From positions 1-5,503 of the IMG/VR virus record IMGVR_UViG_3300029478_000049: a stretch of 5,503 nucleotides of DNA; one strand, given 5' to 3'. Under the pieces are notes generated by a model. That model was not told the DNA's origin and ran no database searches. It saw only the letters and a program-made list of their open reading frames with translations. The translations under genes were made by a program, and so were the position numbers. Origin of the DNA: a virus. Position 1 is the first letter of the stretch, and each line of letters starts with the position of its first letter. Of this stretch, positions 1 to 5,503 are shown piece after piece.

Positions 1-77
1 AGACTGCTAAAATGTAGTTGTAAGGTACGCTTGCCCGCTTTCTCATTCTGTGGTATAATCAACACAAGGCAAGTTGT
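1..77. repeat. Terminal redundancy: 1-77 is identical to 5427-5503. The sequence is a circular genome of 5426 nt written with a 77-nt overlap.
   Basis: Direct comparison of the first and last 77 nt (agactgctaaaatgtagttgtaaggtacgc...caaggcaagttgt) shows an exact match. Confidence 0.95.
31..59 (+). promoter_or_regulatory. Candidate sigma70 promoter with an extended -10 element. TTGCCC at 31-36, a 17-nt spacer, TGg at 51-53 and TATAAT at 54-59.
   Basis: The -10 hexamer matches consensus perfectly and is preceded by the TGn extended -10 motif. The -35 is weak (TTG only). The element lies in the long non-coding region upstream of VP3 and is also present in the repeat copy at 5457-5485. Confidence 0.4.
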
Positions 78-96
78 AATACCACAACACATTAAA

Positions 97-133
97 GGCG
101 TTCAGCGTAATGTTGAGCGTCTTTTTTGTTTTT
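97..133 (+). terminator. Possible intrinsic terminator or attenuator. It has a 7-bp stem, 97-103 GGCGTTC pairing with 115-121 GAGCGTC, with two G.U wobble pairs in RNA. A T6-G-T5 run follows at 122-133.
   Basis: Stem pairing was checked base by base, and the stem is immediately followed by a U-rich tract. The stem is short and wobble-containing, so this is weak. Confidence 0.3.
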
Positions 134-135
134 AT

Positions 136-154
136 ATACCGGCTATGCCGGTAT
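136..154. other. GC-rich hairpin ATACCGGC-tat-GCCGGTAT, with an 8-bp stem and a 3-nt loop, flanked by AT-rich sequence.
   Basis: Perfect inverted repeat of 136-143 with 147-154. Possible ssDNA structural element, for example a priming or packaging signal. Confidence 0.4.
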
Positions 155-177
155 GATTGGATTTGCTGTTCGCCAGC

Positions 178-211
178 TGGAACAATCGCTTCACATCTTT
201 GTAACAATCGC
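178..211 (+). repeat. Two direct copies of TGNAACAATCGC, at 178-189 and 200-211, spaced 22 bp centre to centre. Candidate iterons or protein-binding sites.
   Basis: An exact 9-mer AACAATCGC is repeated with a conserved TG two nucleotides upstream. The spacing is about two helical turns. It is located in the non-coding region upstream of VP3. Confidence 0.4.
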
Positions 212-281
212 GGACGAGAATTGAGCCTTACGCAAAACTAACCTGCGCGCCTTGTTAGGTTAAGAAAGGAGATTTTTACGC

Positions 282-725
282 ATGGCTAAGTTTTATACGC
301 TTTACGATGAGCAACCGCCTAAACCTTATGTTGAGATTACACAGCCTTCGCTTGCTGACCAAACATTTGCCGAGGAATGCGATATTCATCATATTATAGC
401 CAACTTCAACACAACCGGCATTGTCGATTCTGTTGGCGCACATGACCCGGCTACTTTGCAGTATGGTGATACTACATTACTCCCGGATTATGAAACAGCC
501 TGCAACCTTGTTGCTAATGTTAATGCAGAGTTTGCAGACTTGCCTTCTAGCGTTCGTGCTGAATTTGGCAATGACCCACGAATGCTGCTTGATGCTCTAA
601 CATCTACTGACGCTAAAGTTGTATCTAGGCTTGAAGAGTTAGGTCTTAAACCTAAAGCTATTGTAGATACTCCGGTAGAACCTGTCACTCCGGTAGCAGG
701 AGAGAGTAATTCACAGCAAAAATAA
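282..725 (+). CDS. VP3-like internal scaffolding protein of gokushovirus type, 147 aa.
   Basis: ATG at 282 with AAGGAG at 266-271 (10-nt spacing). The size is about 150 aa. The protein contains ...QTFAEECDIHHII...TTG... and a C-terminal ...FADLPSSVRAEFGNDP... segment. I recall these as resembling conserved VP3 motifs of Chlamydia-phage-type microviruses (ECDINxI, LPxxxRxxFxNxP). This rests on remembered family features and was not searched. Confidence 0.65.
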   Translation: MAKFYTLYDEQPPKPYVEITQPSLADQTFAEECDIHHIIANFNTTGIVDSVGAHDPATLQYGDTTLLPDYETACNLVANVNAEFADLPSSVRAEFGNDPRMLLDALTSTDAKVVSRLEELGLKPKAIVDTPVEPVTPVAGESNSQQK

Positions 726-764
726 TTTATATGCTAATATTCACTTATGTAGAATAATAACCTT

Positions 765-812
765 GTCACCTTGACCAGTTACCTACTTGATAGTAACTGG
801 TCAAGGTGACAC
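765..812. other. Perfect 19-bp inverted repeat. The arms are TGTCACCTTGACCAGTTAC (765-783) and GTAACTGGTCAAGGTGACA (794-812), with a 10-nt loop CTACTTGATA (784-793). Candidate origin or structural signal in the VP3-VP1 intergenic region.
   Basis: Reverse complementarity was verified base by base, and the repeat breaks exactly at 764/813. The loop plus the start of the right arm reads ACTTGATAGTAAC. This resembles the phiX174 gpA origin core CAACTTG^ATATTAATAAC, where the nick falls between G and A. Confidence 0.6.
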
Positions 813-933
813 AAAATCAGAAAAACCTTCAAAAATAAGCCTTTTATTTATTTTTAATTCCCTTCTGATTTGATAACAAAAATGCCGTTCTCGTGCTTTT
901 TGGTCTTTTAATAAAATTAAGGAGATTTTAAAA

Positions 934-2610
934 ATGGCTCGTGATATTCGTGTTAATCAGTCGCATTTCGCGATGATTCCACAAGCTAATATTCGCCGCT
1001 CCGTGTTCGATAGAAGTCATGTTTATAAGACAACCTTTAATGAAGGCCAGCTTATTCCTTACTTTGTCGACGAAGTAATTCCAGGCGATACGTTCACTCT
1101 TAATCCCGTGGAGTTCTGTCGTTTGGCTACTCCGGTTGTTCCGTTTATGGATAACATTTATATTGAAAGTTTTTTCTTTTTCGTTCCGTCCCGTCTTGTC
1201 TATGATAAATGGGTGAATCTTTGCGGTGAGCAGGAAAATCCTGAAGATTCTACTGACTATTTAGTTCCTACTGTTTCTTTAACCGGCGATATGACAAACA
1301 AGCTCCCCGATTATATGGGTATTGCTTGCAGTAATGGCACTTTCAATAATATTTCTGTTAATTGTTTGCCGTTCCGCTCGTATTGGCTCATTTGGAATGA
1401 GTGGTTCCGCGATGAGAACCTGCAAAAGTCTGTTAAGGTTAGCAAAGGCGAAACTAACACTGTTCTTGATCCTATGGGACAATCTACCGCTAACCCTAAT
1501 TATGGTTTGCCGTCCGGTGTATCTAATTGGTATGACCCGGCTCCTCGTGGAAAAAGATATGACTATTTCACCGGTGCGCTGCCTTGGCCGCAGAAAGGTC
1601 CGGCTGTTGATTTGCCTTTAGGTACATCTGCTAATTTGTCTTTGGCTTCCGGAGCTACTATCAGTTTACCTAGTGCTTCCATGTATAATTCTTCTGACGG
1701 CAGGCAGCATAAAGCAACCGGTATTCTTACTAATGGTTCTCCTGCCGGTGGCATTTATACTTACGAAACTAATTCTACTTCATGGACTGACAAAGCTACT
1801 TCTAATGTGCCGGTTTCCGGTATTAATGGTTGGTCTGTTGATTTAACATCAGCTACCTCTATAACAATTAATTCGCTTCGTCAAGCGTTTATGCTCCAAA
1901 GATACTATGAAATTGATGCTCGTGGTGGTACTCGTTATACTGAAAAACTTCAAGCGCATTTTGGCGTAACTAATCCGGATGCACGGCTTCAACGTCCTGA
2001 GTTTCTCGGCTCGCATAGTAGCATGATGAATATTAATCCGGTTACTCAAACAAGCTCAACCGATTCTACCACTCCACAAGGTAATTTAGCTGCATACGGC
2101 CTTAACGCCCAGCGTTATCATGCCTTTACGAAATCCTTTAGTGAATTTGGTTATGTAATAGGTTTAATAAATGTGCGTGCTGACTTAACTTACCAGCAAG
2201 GTATTAATAAAATGTGGCTGCGTTCTGATGTACTCGACTTCTATTGGCCGTCCTTTGCTCATTTAGGAGAACAGGCTATTCAAAACATTGAAATTTATTG
2301 CCAAGGAAATGAAGATGATAAAAAGGTATTTGGCTATCAAGAACGCTATGCAGAATATCGTTATAAGCCGTCTTTGATTACCGGTCAATTCCGCTCAACC
2401 TATAAAGAACCTTTAGACATTTGGCATTTGTCACAGAAATTTGCTACGCTGCCTACGCTTTCGGATGAGTTTATTCAAGACCACCCGCCTATTAGTCGCG
2501 TAGTTGCTGTTTCGTCCTATCCTCATTTCTTGTTAGATGTCAAATTTAACTTGAAATGCATTCGTCCTATGCCTATGTATGGTATACCCGGCATGATGGG
2601 TCATTTCTAA
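934..2610 (+). CDS. Major capsid protein VP1, the F-protein family of Microviridae. 558 aa.
   Basis: AAGGAG at 919-924, 9 nt before the ATG. The N-terminus MARDIRVNQSHFAMIPQANIRRSVFDRSHVYKTTFNEGQLIPYFVDEVIPGDTF matches the highly conserved start of the microvirus F/VP1 jelly-roll capsid protein (...FDRSH..KTTF..G.LIP...DEVLPGDT...). The length is typical of gokushovirus VP1. Confidence 0.95.
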   Translation: MARDIRVNQSHFAMIPQANIRRSVFDRSHVYKTTFNEGQLIPYFVDEVIPGDTFTLNPVEFCRLATPVVPFMDNIYIESFFFFVPSRLVYDKWVNLCGEQENPEDSTDYLVPTVSLTGDMTNKLPDYMGIACSNGTFNNISVNCLPFRSYWLIWNEWFRDENLQKSVKVSKGETNTVLDPMGQSTANPNYGLPSGVSNWYDPAPRGKRYDYFTGALPWPQKGPAVDLPLGTSANLSLASGATISLPSASMYNSSDGRQHKATGILTNGSPAGGIYTYETNSTSWTDKATSNVPVSGINGWSVDLTSATSITINSLRQAFMLQRYYEIDARGGTRYTEKLQAHFGVTNPDARLQRPEFLGSHSSMMNINPVTQTSSTDSTTPQGNLAAYGLNAQRYHAFTKSFSEFGYVIGLINVRADLTYQQGINKMWLRSDVLDFYWPSFAHLGEQAIQNIEIYCQGNEDDKKVFGYQERYAEYRYKPSLITGQFRSTYKEPLDIWHLSQKFATLPTLSDEFIQDHPPISRVVAVSSYPHFLLDVKFNLKCIRPMPMYGIPGMMGHF

Positions 2611-2626
2611 AAAAGGAGTGATTTAG

Positions 2627-3427
2627 ATGGGTTCCTTTCTTGGCTCTGCTGCTGGAGCTTTTGCTGGTGGCATTTCGTCTATCATTGGCGGTGCTCTTTC
2701 TAACTCTGCTGCTCGCCATGCTGCAACGGTAGCTAATCAGCGTAATATTTATAACTATCAACATCGTTATCAATGGGCTATGGAAGATATGCAAAAAGCT
2801 GGTCTTAATCCTATGTTAGCTGCTACGCAAGGCATTGGTGGTTCTGTTAATGGTGCTTCTGCTCTCTCTGCTAATTACAATTTAGGTGAAGGTGTTACTG
2901 CTGGTATGTCGGCTTCTGCTGCTGGTAACTCCGCTAAGGCTGCTAATCGTCAAGCTCAGGTTGCCGAAAAGATGAGTGATGAACAGATTAAAAATTTGGC
3001 TGCTCAAACTATTCTAGCTGGCTCCAGTGCTAAAAAATATGATGCTGAAACCTATGGTATTTCTGTTGCCAATAAATTGGCTACTGATTCTTATAACGAC
3101 AATTTGGCTTTAGTCAAGCAGAATTTAGCCAATGCTCAGAAGCAAGGCGAATATATCGATGCTCAGAAAGCTAGTCAAATGTATATGATGAATGTGGTTA
3201 TGCCCGCTCAAGCTGCTATGATGTATGCTCAAGGTAATGCTGCTAACAGCTCTGCCGCTTATAATGCGCAGCTGTCCAATGTTGCAAAAGCTGATTACGA
3301 TTATAAAACTTCTCGTAATGCCGATTATAGAAATCTTGGTCTTTCAGATGATGGTTTGCCATGGAATACCATTGGCCGTGCTGCTAATCGCTTGTTTTCT
3401 AGCATTTCTAACTATTTTTCTAAATGA
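2627..3427 (+). CDS. VP2-like minor capsid / DNA pilot protein. 266 aa, Gly/Ala/Ser/Asn-rich.
   Basis: AAGGAG at 2613-2618 with 8-nt spacing. The gene lies immediately downstream of VP1, as in gokushoviruses. The composition is low-complexity, with a G/A-rich N-terminus and a coiled-coil-like middle, typical of VP2 / H-protein analogues. The call rests on position and composition rather than a specific motif. Confidence 0.7.
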   Translation: MGSFLGSAAGAFAGGISSIIGGALSNSAARHAATVANQRNIYNYQHRYQWAMEDMQKAGLNPMLAATQGIGGSVNGASALSANYNLGEGVTAGMSASAAGNSAKAANRQAQVAEKMSDEQIKNLAAQTILAGSSAKKYDAETYGISVANKLATDSYNDNLALVKQNLANAQKQGEYIDAQKASQMYMMNVVMPAQAAMMYAQGNAANSSAAYNAQLSNVAKADYDYKTSRNADYRNLGLSDDGLPWNTIGRAANRLFSSISNYFSK

Positions 3428-3438
3428 GGTGATTAATT

Positions 3439-3708
3439 ATGTCAAACAAAACTACTGCTATTTTGACTTTTCTCGTATCCACAGTTATTCCGTTCATCCA
3501 AGAGGTTGTTGATTTTATTGACATGTTTCGTACCGGCAAGTATAACCGTGAAGGCTCTGCAAGTCTTAAAGCTATCTCTTTGGCCATGCAGGATGATTTG
3601 GTTAACATGCAGAAAAGAGGTACTGACGATGTAAACGGGTTTCGCCACGCGGCAGCAGCTGCGCAAGAAGAGAAAAGTTACTCCCGCTTTTTGGGAAAAA
3701 ATAATTAA
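3439..3708 (+). CDS. Hypothetical 89-aa protein with a predicted N-terminal transmembrane helix (TTAILTFLVSTVIPFIQEVV) and a charged C-terminal tail.
   Basis: GAGGTG at 3426-3431 lies 7 nt before the ATG and overlaps the VP2 stop. The reading frame does not overlap its neighbours. Its hydrophobic N-terminus is unlike any structural microvirus protein. See findings for the lysis hypothesis. Confidence 0.6.
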   Translation: MSNKTTAILTFLVSTVIPFIQEVVDFIDMFRTGKYNREGSASLKAISLAMQDDLVNMQKRGTDDVNGFRHAAAAAQEEKSYSRFLGKNN

Positions 3709-3746
3709 CCTTTTAACCCTTGGTATTTATTTAAGGAGTAAATGTC

Positions 3747-3860
3747 ATGAAAAGAAGTAGAATTTCTCGCGGCAGTTCTCTTCGGAACTTTCGCAATCAT
3801 GCTGTTCCGCGGCTTAAAAATCTTAAATCTCGTAACATGCGCGGCGGTATCCGCATGTAA
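3747..3860 (+). CDS. Small highly basic 37-aa protein, MKRSRISRGSSLRNFRNHAVPRLKNLKSRNMRGGIRM. It is likely a DNA-binding / packaging protein, analogous to phiX174 J or to Chlamydia-phage ORF8.
   Basis: AAGGAG at 3733-3738 lies 8 nt upstream of the ATG at 3747, and the stop is TAA at 3858-3860. 12 of 37 residues are Arg/Lys. The ORF lies between the structural genes and rep, where gokushoviruses encode their small basic DNA-binding protein. It is below the 60-aa cutoff of the supplied ORF track. Confidence 0.55.
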   Translation: MKRSRISRGSSLRNFRNHAVPRLKNLKSRNMRGGIRM

Positions 3861-3877
3861 CAGAAAGTGTGTGTATT

Positions 3878-4822
3878 ATGACTTGCCTTAACCCGATGTT
3901 TGCTAAACGCTCTGCTGTGCCTAACGCTAACGGCAAGTATGAGCTATCAAATTTTGTTGCTTATCGTCAGTTGTTCGGTAAATCTCTTGAATATGCCAAG
4001 GCTGAATTAGCTAATAATTATGCTGTTGTCGTTCCGTGCGGTCAATGCTTAGGCTGCCGTTTGGATAAAGCCAATGACTGGGCCATTCGGTGCGTTCATG
4101 AGGCAAAACTGCATTTGCATAATTGTTTTATAACGCTAACCTATAACGATGATTGCCTTCCAGCTGACTGTTCGTTGCATCGTGATCATTTGCAGCTTTT
4201 TTTCAAGCGACTTCGTCGCTACCTTGATTATCATGATAATTCTAAGATACGTTTTCTGTGTTGCGGTGAGTATGGCGATCTTAATCGCAGGCCGCATTAT
4301 CATATTCTTTGCTTTGGTTGGTTTCCTGCTGATGTCCGGAAAGTTTCGGCGTTGACAGCTGGTTACAATCTCTTTCGTTCTCCCACTCTGGAGCGGCTTT
4401 GGCCGTATGGTTTTAATACTGTAGGTGCTATTACCTTTGAATCTGCCCGCTATGTCGCAAAATATAGTCTTAAAAAGCAGACCGGTAAAAATGCCTGCAT
4501 GTATGACGCTCTAGGTATATCTCCGGAGTTTGTCGGCAGCTCTCTTAAGCCAGGTATAGGAGCTGATTATTTTGGCCGTTATTCTGAGGATATTTTTAAA
4601 CTAGGCTTTGTTACAATTAATGGAGCTAAGTATAAAATACCTCGCTATTATCAAACTTTATTTGAGCGCAGCAATCCCGTTTGGTATAGTATATACAAGC
4701 AGCAAAGGGCCGAAAATGCTAAGGCTGCTGTTATTGATTGTAAAAGGCTGGAAGCCAAGGAGAAGATTTTAAAGCACCGGCAGGAACAATTTGAGCGTGA
4801 TTTTGATAATTTAGGTTTGTAA
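3878..4822 (+). CDS. Replication initiation protein VP4, a gpA-like rolling-circle endonuclease. It is 314 aa from the ATG at 3878, or 317 aa from an alternative in-frame GTG at 3869.
   Basis: The translation shows rolling-circle Rep motifs: CFITLTY (motif I), PHYHILCFG (the HxH metal-binding motif II) and ARYVAKYSLKK (the catalytic YxxKY motif III). The N-terminus MTCLNPM is typical of microvirus Rep proteins. No strong SD is present, so initiation may be coupled to the upstream small ORF, which ends at 3860. Confidence 0.9.
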   Translation: MTCLNPMFAKRSAVPNANGKYELSNFVAYRQLFGKSLEYAKAELANNYAVVVPCGQCLGCRLDKANDWAIRCVHEAKLHLHNCFITLTYNDDCLPADCSLHRDHLQLFFKRLRRYLDYHDNSKIRFLCCGEYGDLNRRPHYHILCFGWFPADVRKVSALTAGYNLFRSPTLERLWPYGFNTVGAITFESARYVAKYSLKKQTGKNACMYDALGISPEFVGSSLKPGIGADYFGRYSEDIFKLGFVTINGAKYKIPRYYQTLFERSNPVWYSIYKQQRAENAKAAVIDCKRLEAKEKILKHRQEQFERDFDNLGL

Positions 4823-4877
4823 AAGTTGTAAAAAGTTGCAAAAAGTTGTTGACAGTTGCTATTTCACATGATATAAT
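4821..4877 (+). promoter_or_regulatory. Strong sigma70 promoter: TTGACA (4849-4854), a 17-nt spacer, then TG-a-TATAAT (TG at 4869-4870, hexamer at 4872-4877). It is preceded by three 10-bp tandem A-tract repeats, AAAAGTTGYW, at 4821/4831/4841, giving an UP-element-like phased bend.
   Basis: Both hexamers match consensus exactly, the spacer length is optimal and an extended -10 TG is present. The A4-5 tracts repeat at exactly 10-bp periodicity, spanning about -30 to -60. The predicted transcription start is near 4884. The downstream gene has GAGGT at 4891-4895 and ATG at 4903. Confidence 0.75.
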
Positions 4878-4902
4878 ATATACAGAAAGTGAGGTAAGCA
4901 AT

Positions 4903-5163
4903 ATGTTAAAAGATTACTATTTTTCTTCTTTCATTGGTACTAAATGCACTCTTAAGCCTTCTACTATTAAAGCTGTTGAGGAAATTCTTTCTCGCCAAGC
5001 ATGTTTTCCTACCTATGGACGTTATCGCTCTTATTGCAAACGTGTTCAATCATTTGGCAAATGTTTCCTTTGGTGTGGTTTTTACTTTGAAGTTGCTGAA
5101 GGGTGCAGAAATAAGCTTTTGTGTATTTTAAAAGCTGATTCTCTAGATAATGAGGTGAATTAA
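4903..5163 (+). CDS. Hypothetical Cys-rich 86-aa protein with 7 Cys.
   Basis: ATG at 4903 with GAGGT 8 nt upstream, directly downstream of the consensus promoter. The 105-aa version in the ORF track starts at a TTG inside the promoter, so I place the start at 4903. There is no recognisable family. Either this ORF or the next may be the VP5 / protein-C analogue. Confidence 0.55.
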   Translation: MLKDYYFSSFIGTKCTLKPSTIKAVEEILSRQACFPTYGRYRSYCKRVQSFGKCFLWCGFYFEVAEGCRNKLLCILKADSLDNEVN

Positions 5164-5503
5164 TGAAACTTTATTGTATTTATGACCGCAAGGGTGAGCT
5201 GATGAACCCGCCTTTCGTTCAACAAAATAATGCTATGGCTATCCGTCAATTTCAAATTATGGTTAATCAGGCTTCTACTCCGGAGCGTTCCAATATTATC
5301 CATGATTATCATGAGGACTTCGTTCTGATGTATCTTGGCGAATTTAATGATAAAACGTGTGAATTTTCCCCACAAAATCCCACTTTGCTTTTGTCTACCG
5401 CTACGGAACTATTGACTCCCCCCCCCAGACTGCTAAAATGTAGTTGTAAGGTACGCTTGCCCGCTTTCTCATTCTGTGGTATAATCAACACAAGGCAAGT
5501 TGT
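5163..5503 (+). CDS. Hypothetical small protein, MKLYCIYDRKGELMNPPFVQQNNAMAIRQF.... As written, the frame runs through the C9 tract and across the circular junction to a TGA at window position 154-156, giving 139 aa. With C8 or C10 it would stop at 5434-5436 or 5441-5443, giving about 90 aa.
   Basis: ATG at 5163 overlaps the upstream stop (TAATG), with GAGGTG at 5152-5157. The first ~85 aa look like a genuine small phage protein. The segment after the poly-C is low-complexity and overlaps the promoter and terminator elements. The true C-terminus therefore depends on the C-tract length. Not in the ORF track, because it runs off the window end. Confidence 0.5.
   Translation, partial: MKLYCIYDRKGELMNPPFVQQNNAMAIRQFQIMVNQASTPERSNIIHDYHEDFVLMYLGEFNDKTCEFSPQNPTLLLSTATELLTPPPRLLKCSCKVRLPAFSFCGIINTRQV
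5418..5426. repeat. C9 homopolymer immediately upstream of the circular junction.
   Basis: Nine consecutive C read at 5418-5426. It sits at the contig break point and inside the last ORF. Confidence 0.9.
5427..5503. repeat. Second copy of the terminal redundancy. Together with 1-77 this is a circularisation signature of the assembly.
   Basis: Exact 77/77 identity with positions 1-77. Confidence 0.95.

What the first reader, a model, noticed from the sequence alone, without database searches (positions are those of the whole stretch)
3747..3860. Unannotated 37-aa Arg/Lys-rich ORF: J-like DNA-packaging protein missed by the ORF track
An SD-preceded mini-ORF with roughly one-third basic residues sits exactly where gokushoviruses (Chlamydia-phage ORF8) and phiX174 (J) encode their small DNA-binding protein. 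It is below typical ORF-calling cutoffs, so it is easily missed. Its stop lies 17 nt before the rep ATG (8 nt before the alternative GTG), suggesting translational coupling to rep.
Basis: partly seen in the sequence, partly recalled or inferred. Interest (0 to 1): 0.55.

Follow-up and report, generated by a model that had tools for sequence, protein, structure and literature searches.

The report
Gokushovirus VP8 small DNA-binding protein gene
The 37-codon arginine/lysine-rich reading frame just upstream of the replication gene is a real, conserved gene: this small phage's copy of VP8, the known internal DNA-binding protein of gokushoviruses, so the finding is correct but ordinary.

Summary
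The ORF at 3747-3860 (+) exists exactly as described: 37 aa, 12 K/R, no D/E, AAGGAG 8 nt upstream, stop 17 nt before the Rep ATG. It is a real gene. It is intact in all 12 close relatives that cover the region, with pN/pS about 0.09-0.14 and 27 of 36 variable sites at codon position 3, and it is the only frame open in all 14 genomes. A peptide-pattern search found it on 31 microvirus-sized contigs. In 28 of 29 distinct IMG/VR genomes scored it ends no more than 27 nt before the Rep start, even where Rep is only 31-40% identical. It matches phrog_10695, as do Chlamydia phage Chp2 ORF8 and phiMH2K "putative DNA binding protein". It also matches PDB 8DES chain E, the VP8 resolved inside the gokushovirus phiEC6098 virion (E 2.5e-5; family profile 1.7e-12), including the ordered C-terminal anchor (SRNMRGGIRM vs ARSMRGGIRL). 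It is therefore a gokushovirus VP8/ORF8 orthologue. It resembles phiX174 J in function only: no sequence or profile similarity was found, and J sits elsewhere in its genome. "Unannotated" holds for most GenBank relatives, but JGI's pipeline called this exact gene. Translational coupling to Rep is plausible (Rep has almost no SD here) but unproven. Known kind, low novelty.

The parts
3733..3738 (+). Shine-Dalgarno box AAGGAG, 8 nt upstream of the VP8 ATG
   Evidence: Invariant in all 13 genomes of the clade while the 8-nt spacer varies. Predicted anti-SD duplex is -8.7 kcal/mol, against about -1 for the Rep ATG.
3747..3860 (+). VP8 (ORF8-type) gene: 37-aa basic internal DNA-binding protein, stop codon included
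   Evidence: phrog_10695 E 7.9e-5 over the full length. PDB 8DES_E E 2.5e-5. pN/pS 0.09-0.14. Only frame open in 14/14 genomes.
3747..3830 (+). Residues 1-28: variable, strongly basic arm (9 of the 12 K/R), inferred to bind the ssDNA genome
   Evidence: Composition. The sequence varies across the family but stays basic. The role is inferred from SpV4/phiEC6098 VP8 and phiX174 J as described in PMC11281519.
3831..3857 (+). Residues 29-37, RNMRGGIRM: near-invariant C-terminal capsid anchor
   Evidence: R29, M31, R32, G33, G34, I35 and R36 are invariant in 20 diverse VP8 sequences including Chp2 ORF8. It corresponds to the ordered C-terminal segment of phiEC6098 VP8.
3861..3877 (+). 17-nt spacer between the VP8 stop and the Rep ATG; contains AGAAAG and an in-frame GTG (3869)
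   Evidence: Length is 15-21 nt in the 14 close relatives scored and 14 nt in the more distant clade member L030. Anti-SD pairing is weak, -0.4 to -1.0 kcal/mol in most. There is no significant RNA structure (z +0.93).
3878..4822 (+). Rep / VP4 replication initiator (downstream neighbour, possibly translationally linked)
   Evidence: Pfam PF23343 and phrog_942. The N-terminal M-x-C-x-x-P is conserved in distant Reps, which favours ATG 3878 over GTG 3869.
934..2610 (+). VP1 major capsid protein, the inferred docking partner of the VP8 C-terminus
   Evidence: Pfam Phage_F E 3.8e-171. The closest solved capsid is phiEC6098 8DES_A, E 4.5e-163. F80 aligns to the pocket residue Q86 (phiEC6098) / Y83 (SpV4).

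Best explanation
The ORF is the VP8 (ORF8) gene of a gokushovirus-type microvirus. It encodes a 4.4-kDa, very basic peptide. Shown here: it is a real protein-coding gene under purifying selection. It belongs to the same sequence family as Chp2 ORF8, phiMH2K p10 and phiEC6098 VP8. It lies directly upstream of Rep in nearly all genomes examined across that family. Inferred from solved relatives: the peptide is made in large amounts from its strong SD. Its invariant C-terminus (RNMRGGIRM) docks in a hydrophobic pocket on the inner face of VP1, probably one copy per VP1. Its Arg/Lys-rich N-terminal arm binds and charge-neutralises the circular ssDNA as it is packaged, and it stays in the virion. 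This is the role protein J plays in phiX174. Speculative: ribosomes that terminate at the VP8 stop may reinitiate at the poorly SD-endowed Rep ATG 17 nt downstream, giving low Rep output tied to VP8 translation.
For: The ORF is intact at 37 aa in 12/12 close relatives that cover the region. pN/pS is 0.094 (0.14 with KT264821), 27/36 variable sites are at codon position 3, and the other two sense frames have pN/pS above 1. It is the only frame free of stops in 14/14 genomes. phrog_10695 is hit full-length by the window ORF (7.9e-5), by Chp2 ORF8 (5.8e-19) and by phiMH2K p10 (8e-8). PDB 8DES chain E, 'Putative DNA binding protein' (phiEC6098 VP8), matches at E 2.5e-5 for the single sequence and 1.7e-12 for the family profile. 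All 72 tblastn matches in GenBank phages are microvirus-type records. A scan for R[NAS]MRGGIR gave 31 loci, all on 4.1-5.8 kb contigs. In 28 of 29 distinct IMG/VR genomes scored, the Rep start follows within -1 to 27 nt; the exception is L047 at 92 nt. phiMH2K annotates its homologue as 'putative DNA binding protein ... similar to phiX174 J' with the order VP5, VP8, Rep. Chp2 ORF8 lies upstream of ORF4. The literature reports VP8 inside SpV4 and phiEC6098 capsids, with a buried C-terminus and the N-terminus ordered only with DNA (PMC11281519). It also reports VP8 as a conserved gokushoviral gene (PMC9239249 and PMC7062461). The window's VP1 is closest to the phiEC6098 capsid and has an aromatic residue at the pocket position. 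The SD is stronger for VP8 than for Rep in 27/31 genomes, with mean -7.6 against -2.7 kcal/mol.
Against: There is no direct evidence for this particular phage: no virion proteomics, structure or DNA-binding assay. The single-sequence E-values are modest (about 1e-5), because the peptide is short and compositionally biased. PHROGs labels the family 'unknown function', and Pfam has no model that matches. The window peptide has Leu at position 12, where all 12 close relatives have Arg. For the coupling step, no RBS-occluding structure is predicted. Some relatives carry a good Rep SD (L011 -6.8, L039 -7.9). Two genomes have long gaps: L047 at 92 nt, and Chp2 at 117 nt as annotated.
Confidence: 0.9

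Rival explanations
1. The ORF is primarily a regulatory upstream ORF (leader peptide). Its translation controls Rep expression by termination-reinitiation, and the peptide itself has no structural role.
For: The gap to the Rep start is short in 28 of 29 distinct IMG/VR genomes scored (-1 to 27 nt; TAATG overlap in L042, 0 nt in L046). The Rep ATG in this clade has almost no SD, about -1 kcal/mol. No + strand promoter or terminator was found between the genes.
Against: A pure uORF would not need a conserved amino-acid sequence. Here pN/pS is about 0.1 and the C-terminal nine residues are nearly invariant across genomes whose Rep is only 31-40% identical. The homologue is physically present in the phiEC6098 virion structure (8DES_E) and in the SpV4 virion. 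A regulatory role could still exist in addition to the structural one.
Confidence: 0.05
2. It is a chance ORF in a non-coding spacer, or the sequence is conserved for a nucleic-acid function such as an origin, a packaging signal or an RNA structure.
For: Short ORFs are abundant, with 59 of at least 25 aa in the window. 3.6% of shuffles of the gap give an ORF this long. A small palindrome, CATGCG..CGCATG, lies at the 3' end.
Against: Substitutions concentrate at synonymous sites. The frame is kept open in every relative while the other frames carry stops. No shuffle out of 5000 reproduced the composition. The peptide, not the DNA, is what is conserved in distant genomes. The local RNA fold is no better than shuffles, z +0.93.
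Confidence: 0.01
3. It is a true evolutionary homologue (family member) of the phiX174-type J protein, not just a functional analogue.
For: The size (37 vs 38 aa), the K+R count (12 each) and the lack of acidic residues all match. Both end in G-G-x-x-hydrophobic (GGIRM vs GGQQF). PMC11281519 reports that the last four residues of VP8 and J proteins occupy the same buried site of the capsid. Both are encoded by Microviridae.
Against: There is no Pfam hit for any of 20 VP8 sequences, even at E<=10. J falls in phrog_2354/3780, not phrog_10695. The VP8 profile retrieves no J chains from the PDB at E<=10. hhalign probability is 0.2% with one aligned column. The genomic position differs, since J lies between D/E and F.
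Confidence: 0.2

Closest known systems
VP8 of Enterogokushovirus phiEC6098 (PDB 8DES chain E, 39 aa, 'Putative DNA binding protein')
   Same: They align end to end (window residues 2-37 vs 4-39), E 2.5e-5. The C-terminal ten residues are 8/10 identical (SRNMRGGIRM vs ARSMRGGIRL). The gene order VP2 ... VP8 then VP4 around the circle is the same. The cognate VP1 is the closest solved capsid.
   Different: The window peptide has 12 basic residues, against 16 reported for phiEC6098. It ends in Met rather than Leu. An 89-aa ORF sits between VP2 and VP8, where enterogokushoviruses have a non-coding region. VP1 has F80 where phiEC6098 has Q86.
Chlamydia phage Chp2 ORF8 and Bdellovibrio phage phiMH2K p10 (phrog_10695)
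   Same: They share the PHROG family, the MRGGIR[LMF] C-terminus and the S11, F15 and N25 columns. All lie upstream of the Rep gene.
   Different: Identity is only 43-47%. Chp2 ORF8 is longer (44 aa, 19 K/R) and is annotated 117 nt before ORF4. Chp2 labels it 'nonstructural protein'.
SpV4 VP8 (resolved in the 2.5 A virion structure, PMC11281519)
   Same: It is a small basic peptide on the inner capsid surface with a buried C-terminal hydrophobic residue. There is a weak C-terminal profile match over 16 columns, N-x-x-P-x-x-x-RGG-x-R-hydrophobic.
   Different: The similarity is marginal (hhalign probability 18%). It is not retrieved by the VP8 profile from the PDB and is not in phrog_10695.
Protein J of phiX174 / G4 / alpha3 (Bullavirinae DNA-condensing core protein)
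   Same: It works like J. It has the same size and charge, a basic DNA-binding part plus a C-terminal tether ending GGxx-hydrophobic, and the same buried capsid site for the last four residues according to PMC11281519.
   Different: It is not a demonstrable member of the J family. No sequence or profile similarity was found. It has a different genomic neighbourhood, since J lies between D/E and F. Gokushoviruses also lack the external scaffold D and spike G system in which J acts.

Membership tests
Gokushovirinae VP8 / ORF8 small DNA-binding protein (phrog_10695) | Significant full-length match to the family profile | tested here: met
   phrog_10695 E 7.9e-5, residues 1-37 on profile positions 2-39 of 39. 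Reference members Chp2 ORF8 (5.8e-19) and phiMH2K p10 (8e-8) hit the same profile.
Gokushovirinae VP8 / ORF8 small DNA-binding protein (phrog_10695) | Similarity to a VP8 experimentally located inside a virion | tested here: met
   8DES_E (phiEC6098 VP8): E 2.5e-5 for the single sequence and 1.7e-12 for the family profile.
Gokushovirinae VP8 / ORF8 small DNA-binding protein (phrog_10695) | About 32-48 aa, Arg/Lys-rich, essentially no acidic residues | tested here: met
   37 aa, 12 K/R, 0 D/E, pI about 12.
Gokushovirinae VP8 / ORF8 small DNA-binding protein (phrog_10695) | Conserved C-terminal anchor R-x-M-R-G-G-I-R-[L/M/F] at the very C-terminus | tested here: met
   RNMRGGIRM followed by the stop. 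These columns are invariant in 20 diverse sequences.
Gokushovirinae VP8 / ORF8 small DNA-binding protein (phrog_10695) | Encoded on the same strand directly upstream of Rep (VP4) in a genome with gokushovirus VP1, VP2 and VP3 | tested here: met
   The window genes were identified. The same arrangement is found in phiMH2K, Chp2 and the distinct IMG/VR genomes.
Gokushovirinae VP8 / ORF8 small DNA-binding protein (phrog_10695) | Reading frame maintained under purifying selection | tested here: met
   pN/pS 0.094-0.14 and 27/36 variable sites at position 3. The frame is open in 14/14 genomes.
Gokushovirinae VP8 / ORF8 small DNA-binding protein (phrog_10695) | Peptide present in virions and bound to ssDNA | not testable with these tools
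   This is known only for relatives: phiEC6098 (8DES) and SpV4 (PMC11281519).
Bullavirinae protein J (phrog_2354 / phrog_3780) | Sequence or profile similarity to J | tested here: not met
   No Pfam family matches at E<=10 for 20 VP8 sequences. J hits phrog_2354/3780 only. hhalign probability is 0.2%. No J chain is retrieved from the PDB.
Bullavirinae protein J (phrog_2354 / phrog_3780) | Gene located between the D/E and F (coat) genes | tested here: not met
   phiX174 J is at 848-964, between D/E and F. Here the ORF lies between an 89-aa ORF and Rep, on the far side of VP2 from VP1.
Bullavirinae protein J (phrog_2354 / phrog_3780) | Basic DNA-binding segment plus a C-terminal capsid tether ending in a hydrophobic residue | tested here: inconclusive
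   The composition and the GGxx-hydrophobic ending are shared. This is too short a motif to establish homology. Structural equivalence of the last four residues rests on PMC11281519.

The most novel reading that the evidence does not exclude
The VP8 ORF may have a second, unrecognised job across Gokushovirinae. Because it almost always ends within about 0-27 nt of the Rep start, and in this clade Rep has essentially no SD of its own, Rep synthesis may depend on ribosomes terminating VP8 (termination-reinitiation). That would hard-wire a high-VP8 / low-Rep ratio and tie replication-initiator supply to packaging-protein synthesis.
Probability: 0.25. Interest if true: 0.4.

Novelty: new member of a known kind. 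Interest (0 to 1): 0.15.

Why it matters
The main value is for annotation quality. VP8 is one of the six core gokushovirus genes, yet it has no dedicated feature in about two thirds of the related GenBank records listed here, and PHROGs labels it 'unknown function'. Recognising it completes the gene map of this 5.5-kb genome and fixes the likely Rep start. It also gives a simple diagnostic, a basic ORF of about 37 aa ending MRGGIR[LMF] just upstream of Rep. It does not change what is understood about microvirus biology.

Tried and rejected
I used tblastn, pattern scans and PDB/PHROG profiles instead.
- Lee et al. 2022 (PMC9645218), the primary phiEC6098 structure paper, is not held. Statements about its VP8 come second-hand from PMC11281519.
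- Antisense coding was rejected. One antisense frame has lowish pN/pS (0.24), as expected from shared wobble positions, but it carries stops in 13/14 genomes. The frame that is open in the window has stops in 7/14 and pN/pS 1.3.
- The overlapping + strand ORF 3799-3891 (30 aa) was rejected, because that frame has pN/pS above 2.
- An attenuator or terminator, or an RBS-masking hairpin, between VP8 and Rep was rejected. No + strand terminator or promoter was found, and the fold is no better than shuffles. The predicted folds differ among relatives.
- I tested whether the 89-aa upstream ORF is VP5, and it is not detectably so. I also tested whether the 105-aa ORF after Rep resembles the 'VP5' of KT264821, and it shows no similarity.
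- Structure prediction of a 37-aa disordered basic peptide on its own was judged uninformative and was not run.
- A representative-library search with a 37-aa biased query was judged unable to reach significance beyond close relatives and was not run.

Full report
**Observation.** The window is a 5.5-kb gokushovirus-type Microviridae genome with every gene on the + strand.
- VP3 scaffold, 282-725 (Pfam Chlamy_scaf).
- VP1, 934-2610 (Phage_F, E 3.8e-171).
- VP2 pilot protein, 2627-3427 (phrog_8693).
- An 89-aa ORF, 3439-3708 (phrog_23638, function unknown).
- The mini-ORF, 3747-3860.
- Rep/VP4, ending at 4822 (PF23343, phrog_942).

The mini-ORF reads MKRSRISRGSSLRNFRNHAVPRLKNLKSRNMRGGIRM. It has 12 K/R in 37 residues, no acidic residue and a pI of about 12. 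AAGGAG lies 8 nt upstream of its ATG. Its TAA ends at 3860, which is 8 nt before an in-frame GTG and 17 nt before the Rep ATG at 3878. Every factual element of the finding is correct.

An ORF of this length is not remarkable by itself. There are 59 ORFs of at least 25 aa in the window, and 3.6% of shuffles of the 169-nt gap produce an ORF this long. None of 5000 shuffles reproduced the composition.

**Is it a gene?** I retrieved 15 close relatives through Rep (85-97% identity). All 12 whose DNA covers the region carry an intact 37-codon ORF.
- With KT264821 added, pairwise Nei-Gojobori counts give pS 0.46 and pN 0.064 (ratio 0.14). Within the close clade the ratio is 0.094.
- 27 of 36 variable sites are at third codon positions.
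- The two other sense frames have ratios above 2.
- It is the only one of the six frames without stop codons in all 14 genomes.
- The AAGGAG box is invariant while the spacer behind it changes.

Conservation is at the protein level.

**What family?** The peptide hits phrog_10695 over its full length (E 7.9e-5). Chlamydia phage Chp2 ORF8 (5.8e-19) and phiMH2K p10 (8e-8) hit the same profile.
- tblastn against GenBank phages found 72 records, all microvirus-type. They include phiMH2K's 'putative DNA binding protein; similar to bacteriophage phiX174 J protein'.
- Against the PDB the only significant hit is 8DES chain E, 'Putative DNA binding protein', aligned 2-37 to 4-39 (E 2.5e-5).
- A profile of 20 diverse family members raises that hit to 1.7e-12.
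- 8DES is the cryo-EM structure of gokushovirus phiEC6098.
- According to PMC11281519, only the C-terminal 10 residues of phiEC6098 VP8 are ordered. SpV4 VP8 lines the inner capsid surface, with its C-terminal residue buried in a hydrophobic pocket of VP1 and its N-terminus ordered only when DNA is present.
- The ordered phiEC6098 segment ARSMRGGIRL corresponds to SRNMRGGIRM here.
- In the 20-sequence alignment S11, F15, N25, R29 and M31-R36 are invariant.
- The window's VP1 is closest to the phiEC6098 capsid (E 4.5e-163). It has Phe80 at the position of phiEC6098 Q86 / SpV4 Y83, a residue the SpV4 paper places next to the VP8 C-terminus.

**Context across the family.** A context-blind scan of IMG/VR for the peptide pattern R[NAS]MRGGIR returned 31 confirmed loci, all on 4.1-5.8 kb contigs.
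- In the distant ones, VP1 is 42-55% identical and Rep 31-40%. The ORF always lies on the same strand upstream of Rep.
- Of 29 distinct IMG/VR genomes scored, 28 have the Rep start within -1 to 27 nt of the VP8 stop. That range includes a TAATG overlap in L042 and a 0-nt junction in L046. The exception is L047 at 92 nt.
- Chp2 has the same order, with an annotated gap of 117 nt.
- The literature treats VP8 as one of six conserved gokushovirus genes and as the protein cluster that links the gokushoviral subfamilies (PMC7062461 and PMC9239249).

**Relation to phiX174 J.** The analogy is functional. The two peptides have the same size and the same K+R count, and both end in GGxx-hydrophobic. Published structures put the last four residues in the same capsid site. 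Membership in the J family is not supported.
- No Pfam model matches any of 20 VP8 sequences at E<=10.
- J belongs to phrog_2354/3780.
- The VP8 profile finds no J chain in the PDB.
- hhalign gives 0.2% probability.

Even SpV4 VP8 is only marginally alignable, over 16 C-terminal columns at 18% probability.

**'Unannotated'.** Of the 40 best GenBank matches, 21 have no feature under the match. Five more have only an overlapping Rep or pilot-protein feature. Twelve call it hypothetical, and only the two phiMH2K records name it. The closest relative, KT264821, omits it. However, JGI's pipeline called this exact 37-aa gene on contig Ga0495776_013424 of metagenome 3300045988, which is identical to the window over 5425 nt. 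So it is easily missed, but not universally missed.

**Translational coupling.**
- For it: the gap is short across the family. VP8's SD is stronger than Rep's in 27/31 genomes, with mean -7.6 against -2.7 kcal/mol. In this clade the Rep ATG has about -1 kcal/mol of anti-SD pairing. No + strand promoter or terminator intervenes.
- Against or neutral: the region folds no better than shuffles (z +0.93) and the predicted folds are not conserved. Some relatives have a decent Rep SD, and two genomes have long gaps.

I rate coupling as a reasonable but untested add-on, at about 0.25.

The Rep start itself is best placed at ATG 3878. The N-terminal M-x-C-x-x-P motif is conserved in distant Reps, and L011, L014 and L030 lack the in-frame GTG. 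The JGI call uses a later ATG, at window 3896.

**Verdict.** This is a real gene and a new member of the known gokushovirus VP8/ORF8 family. It most likely acts as the internal ssDNA-binding, charge-neutralising, capsid-tethered packaging protein. Novelty and interest are low.

Noticed in passing
window 3869-3900: There are three competing Rep starts. The mechanical ORF list uses GTG 3869. JGI's gene call corresponds to ATG 3896 (308 aa). The conserved N-terminal M-x-C-x-x-P motif of distant Reps, and the lack of the GTG in L011, L014 and L030, favour ATG 3878 (314 aa).
   Followed up: partly
window 3439-3708: An 89-aa ORF (phrog_23638, unknown function) fills the VP2-VP8 interval, which is a variable non-coding region in enterogokushoviruses. 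It is conserved in L030 (73%) and KT264821 (46%) and is unannotated in KT264821. It is not detectably related to phiMH2K VP5 (E 0.046).
   Followed up: partly
window 4846-5163: A 105-aa ORF (TTG start) sits directly after Rep, in the position where relatives annotate VP5. It has no Pfam or PHROG family and no similarity to the 'VP5' of KT264821. JGI also calls a further 87-aa gene after it.
   Followed up: partly
window 3780-3782 (codon 12 of the mini-ORF): The window peptide has Leu12 (CTT) where all 12 close relatives have Arg. This loses one positive charge in the basic arm, and its significance is unknown.
   Followed up: no
L037 610-723, L038 2501-2614, L042 2224-2340: In some distant genomes the VP8 ORF appears to start at GTG (GTGAAACG.AAAA.., reading VKRK...). 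ATG-only ORF calling therefore truncates it to 32-33 aa or misses its RBS.
   Followed up: no
L001 3633-3650; also L035, L038, L044, L047, L048 just upstream of the Rep start: An A-rich run followed by GGCCC or GGGCC (consensus AAAAAGGCCC), about 9 nt before the Rep start codon, recurs in phiMH2K-like genomes. It may be an SD-like or regulatory box. It is absent from the window's clade, which has AGAAAG instead.
   Followed up: no
window 1-5503 vs L052: The window and JGI contig Ga0495776_013424 are identical over 5425 nt but differ at the ends. The window's last 78 nt are absent from the contig, and the contig's first 56 nt, including a poly-C run, are absent from the window. No terminal direct repeat was found, so circular closure is not shown.
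   Followed up: partly
window 2431-2526 (- strand): A 31-aa basic antisense ORF inside VP1 (MRIGRNSNYATNRR...) recurs in relatives L004, L009 and L011. It is probably a by-product of VP1 conservation, since microviruses encode genes on one strand only.
   Followed up: no
window 1171-1173 (VP1 residue F80): VP1 has Phe at the position aligned to phiEC6098 Q86 / SpV4 Y83, next to the VP8 C-terminal pocket. In this respect the docking site resembles SpV4 more than phiEC6098.
   Followed up: partly
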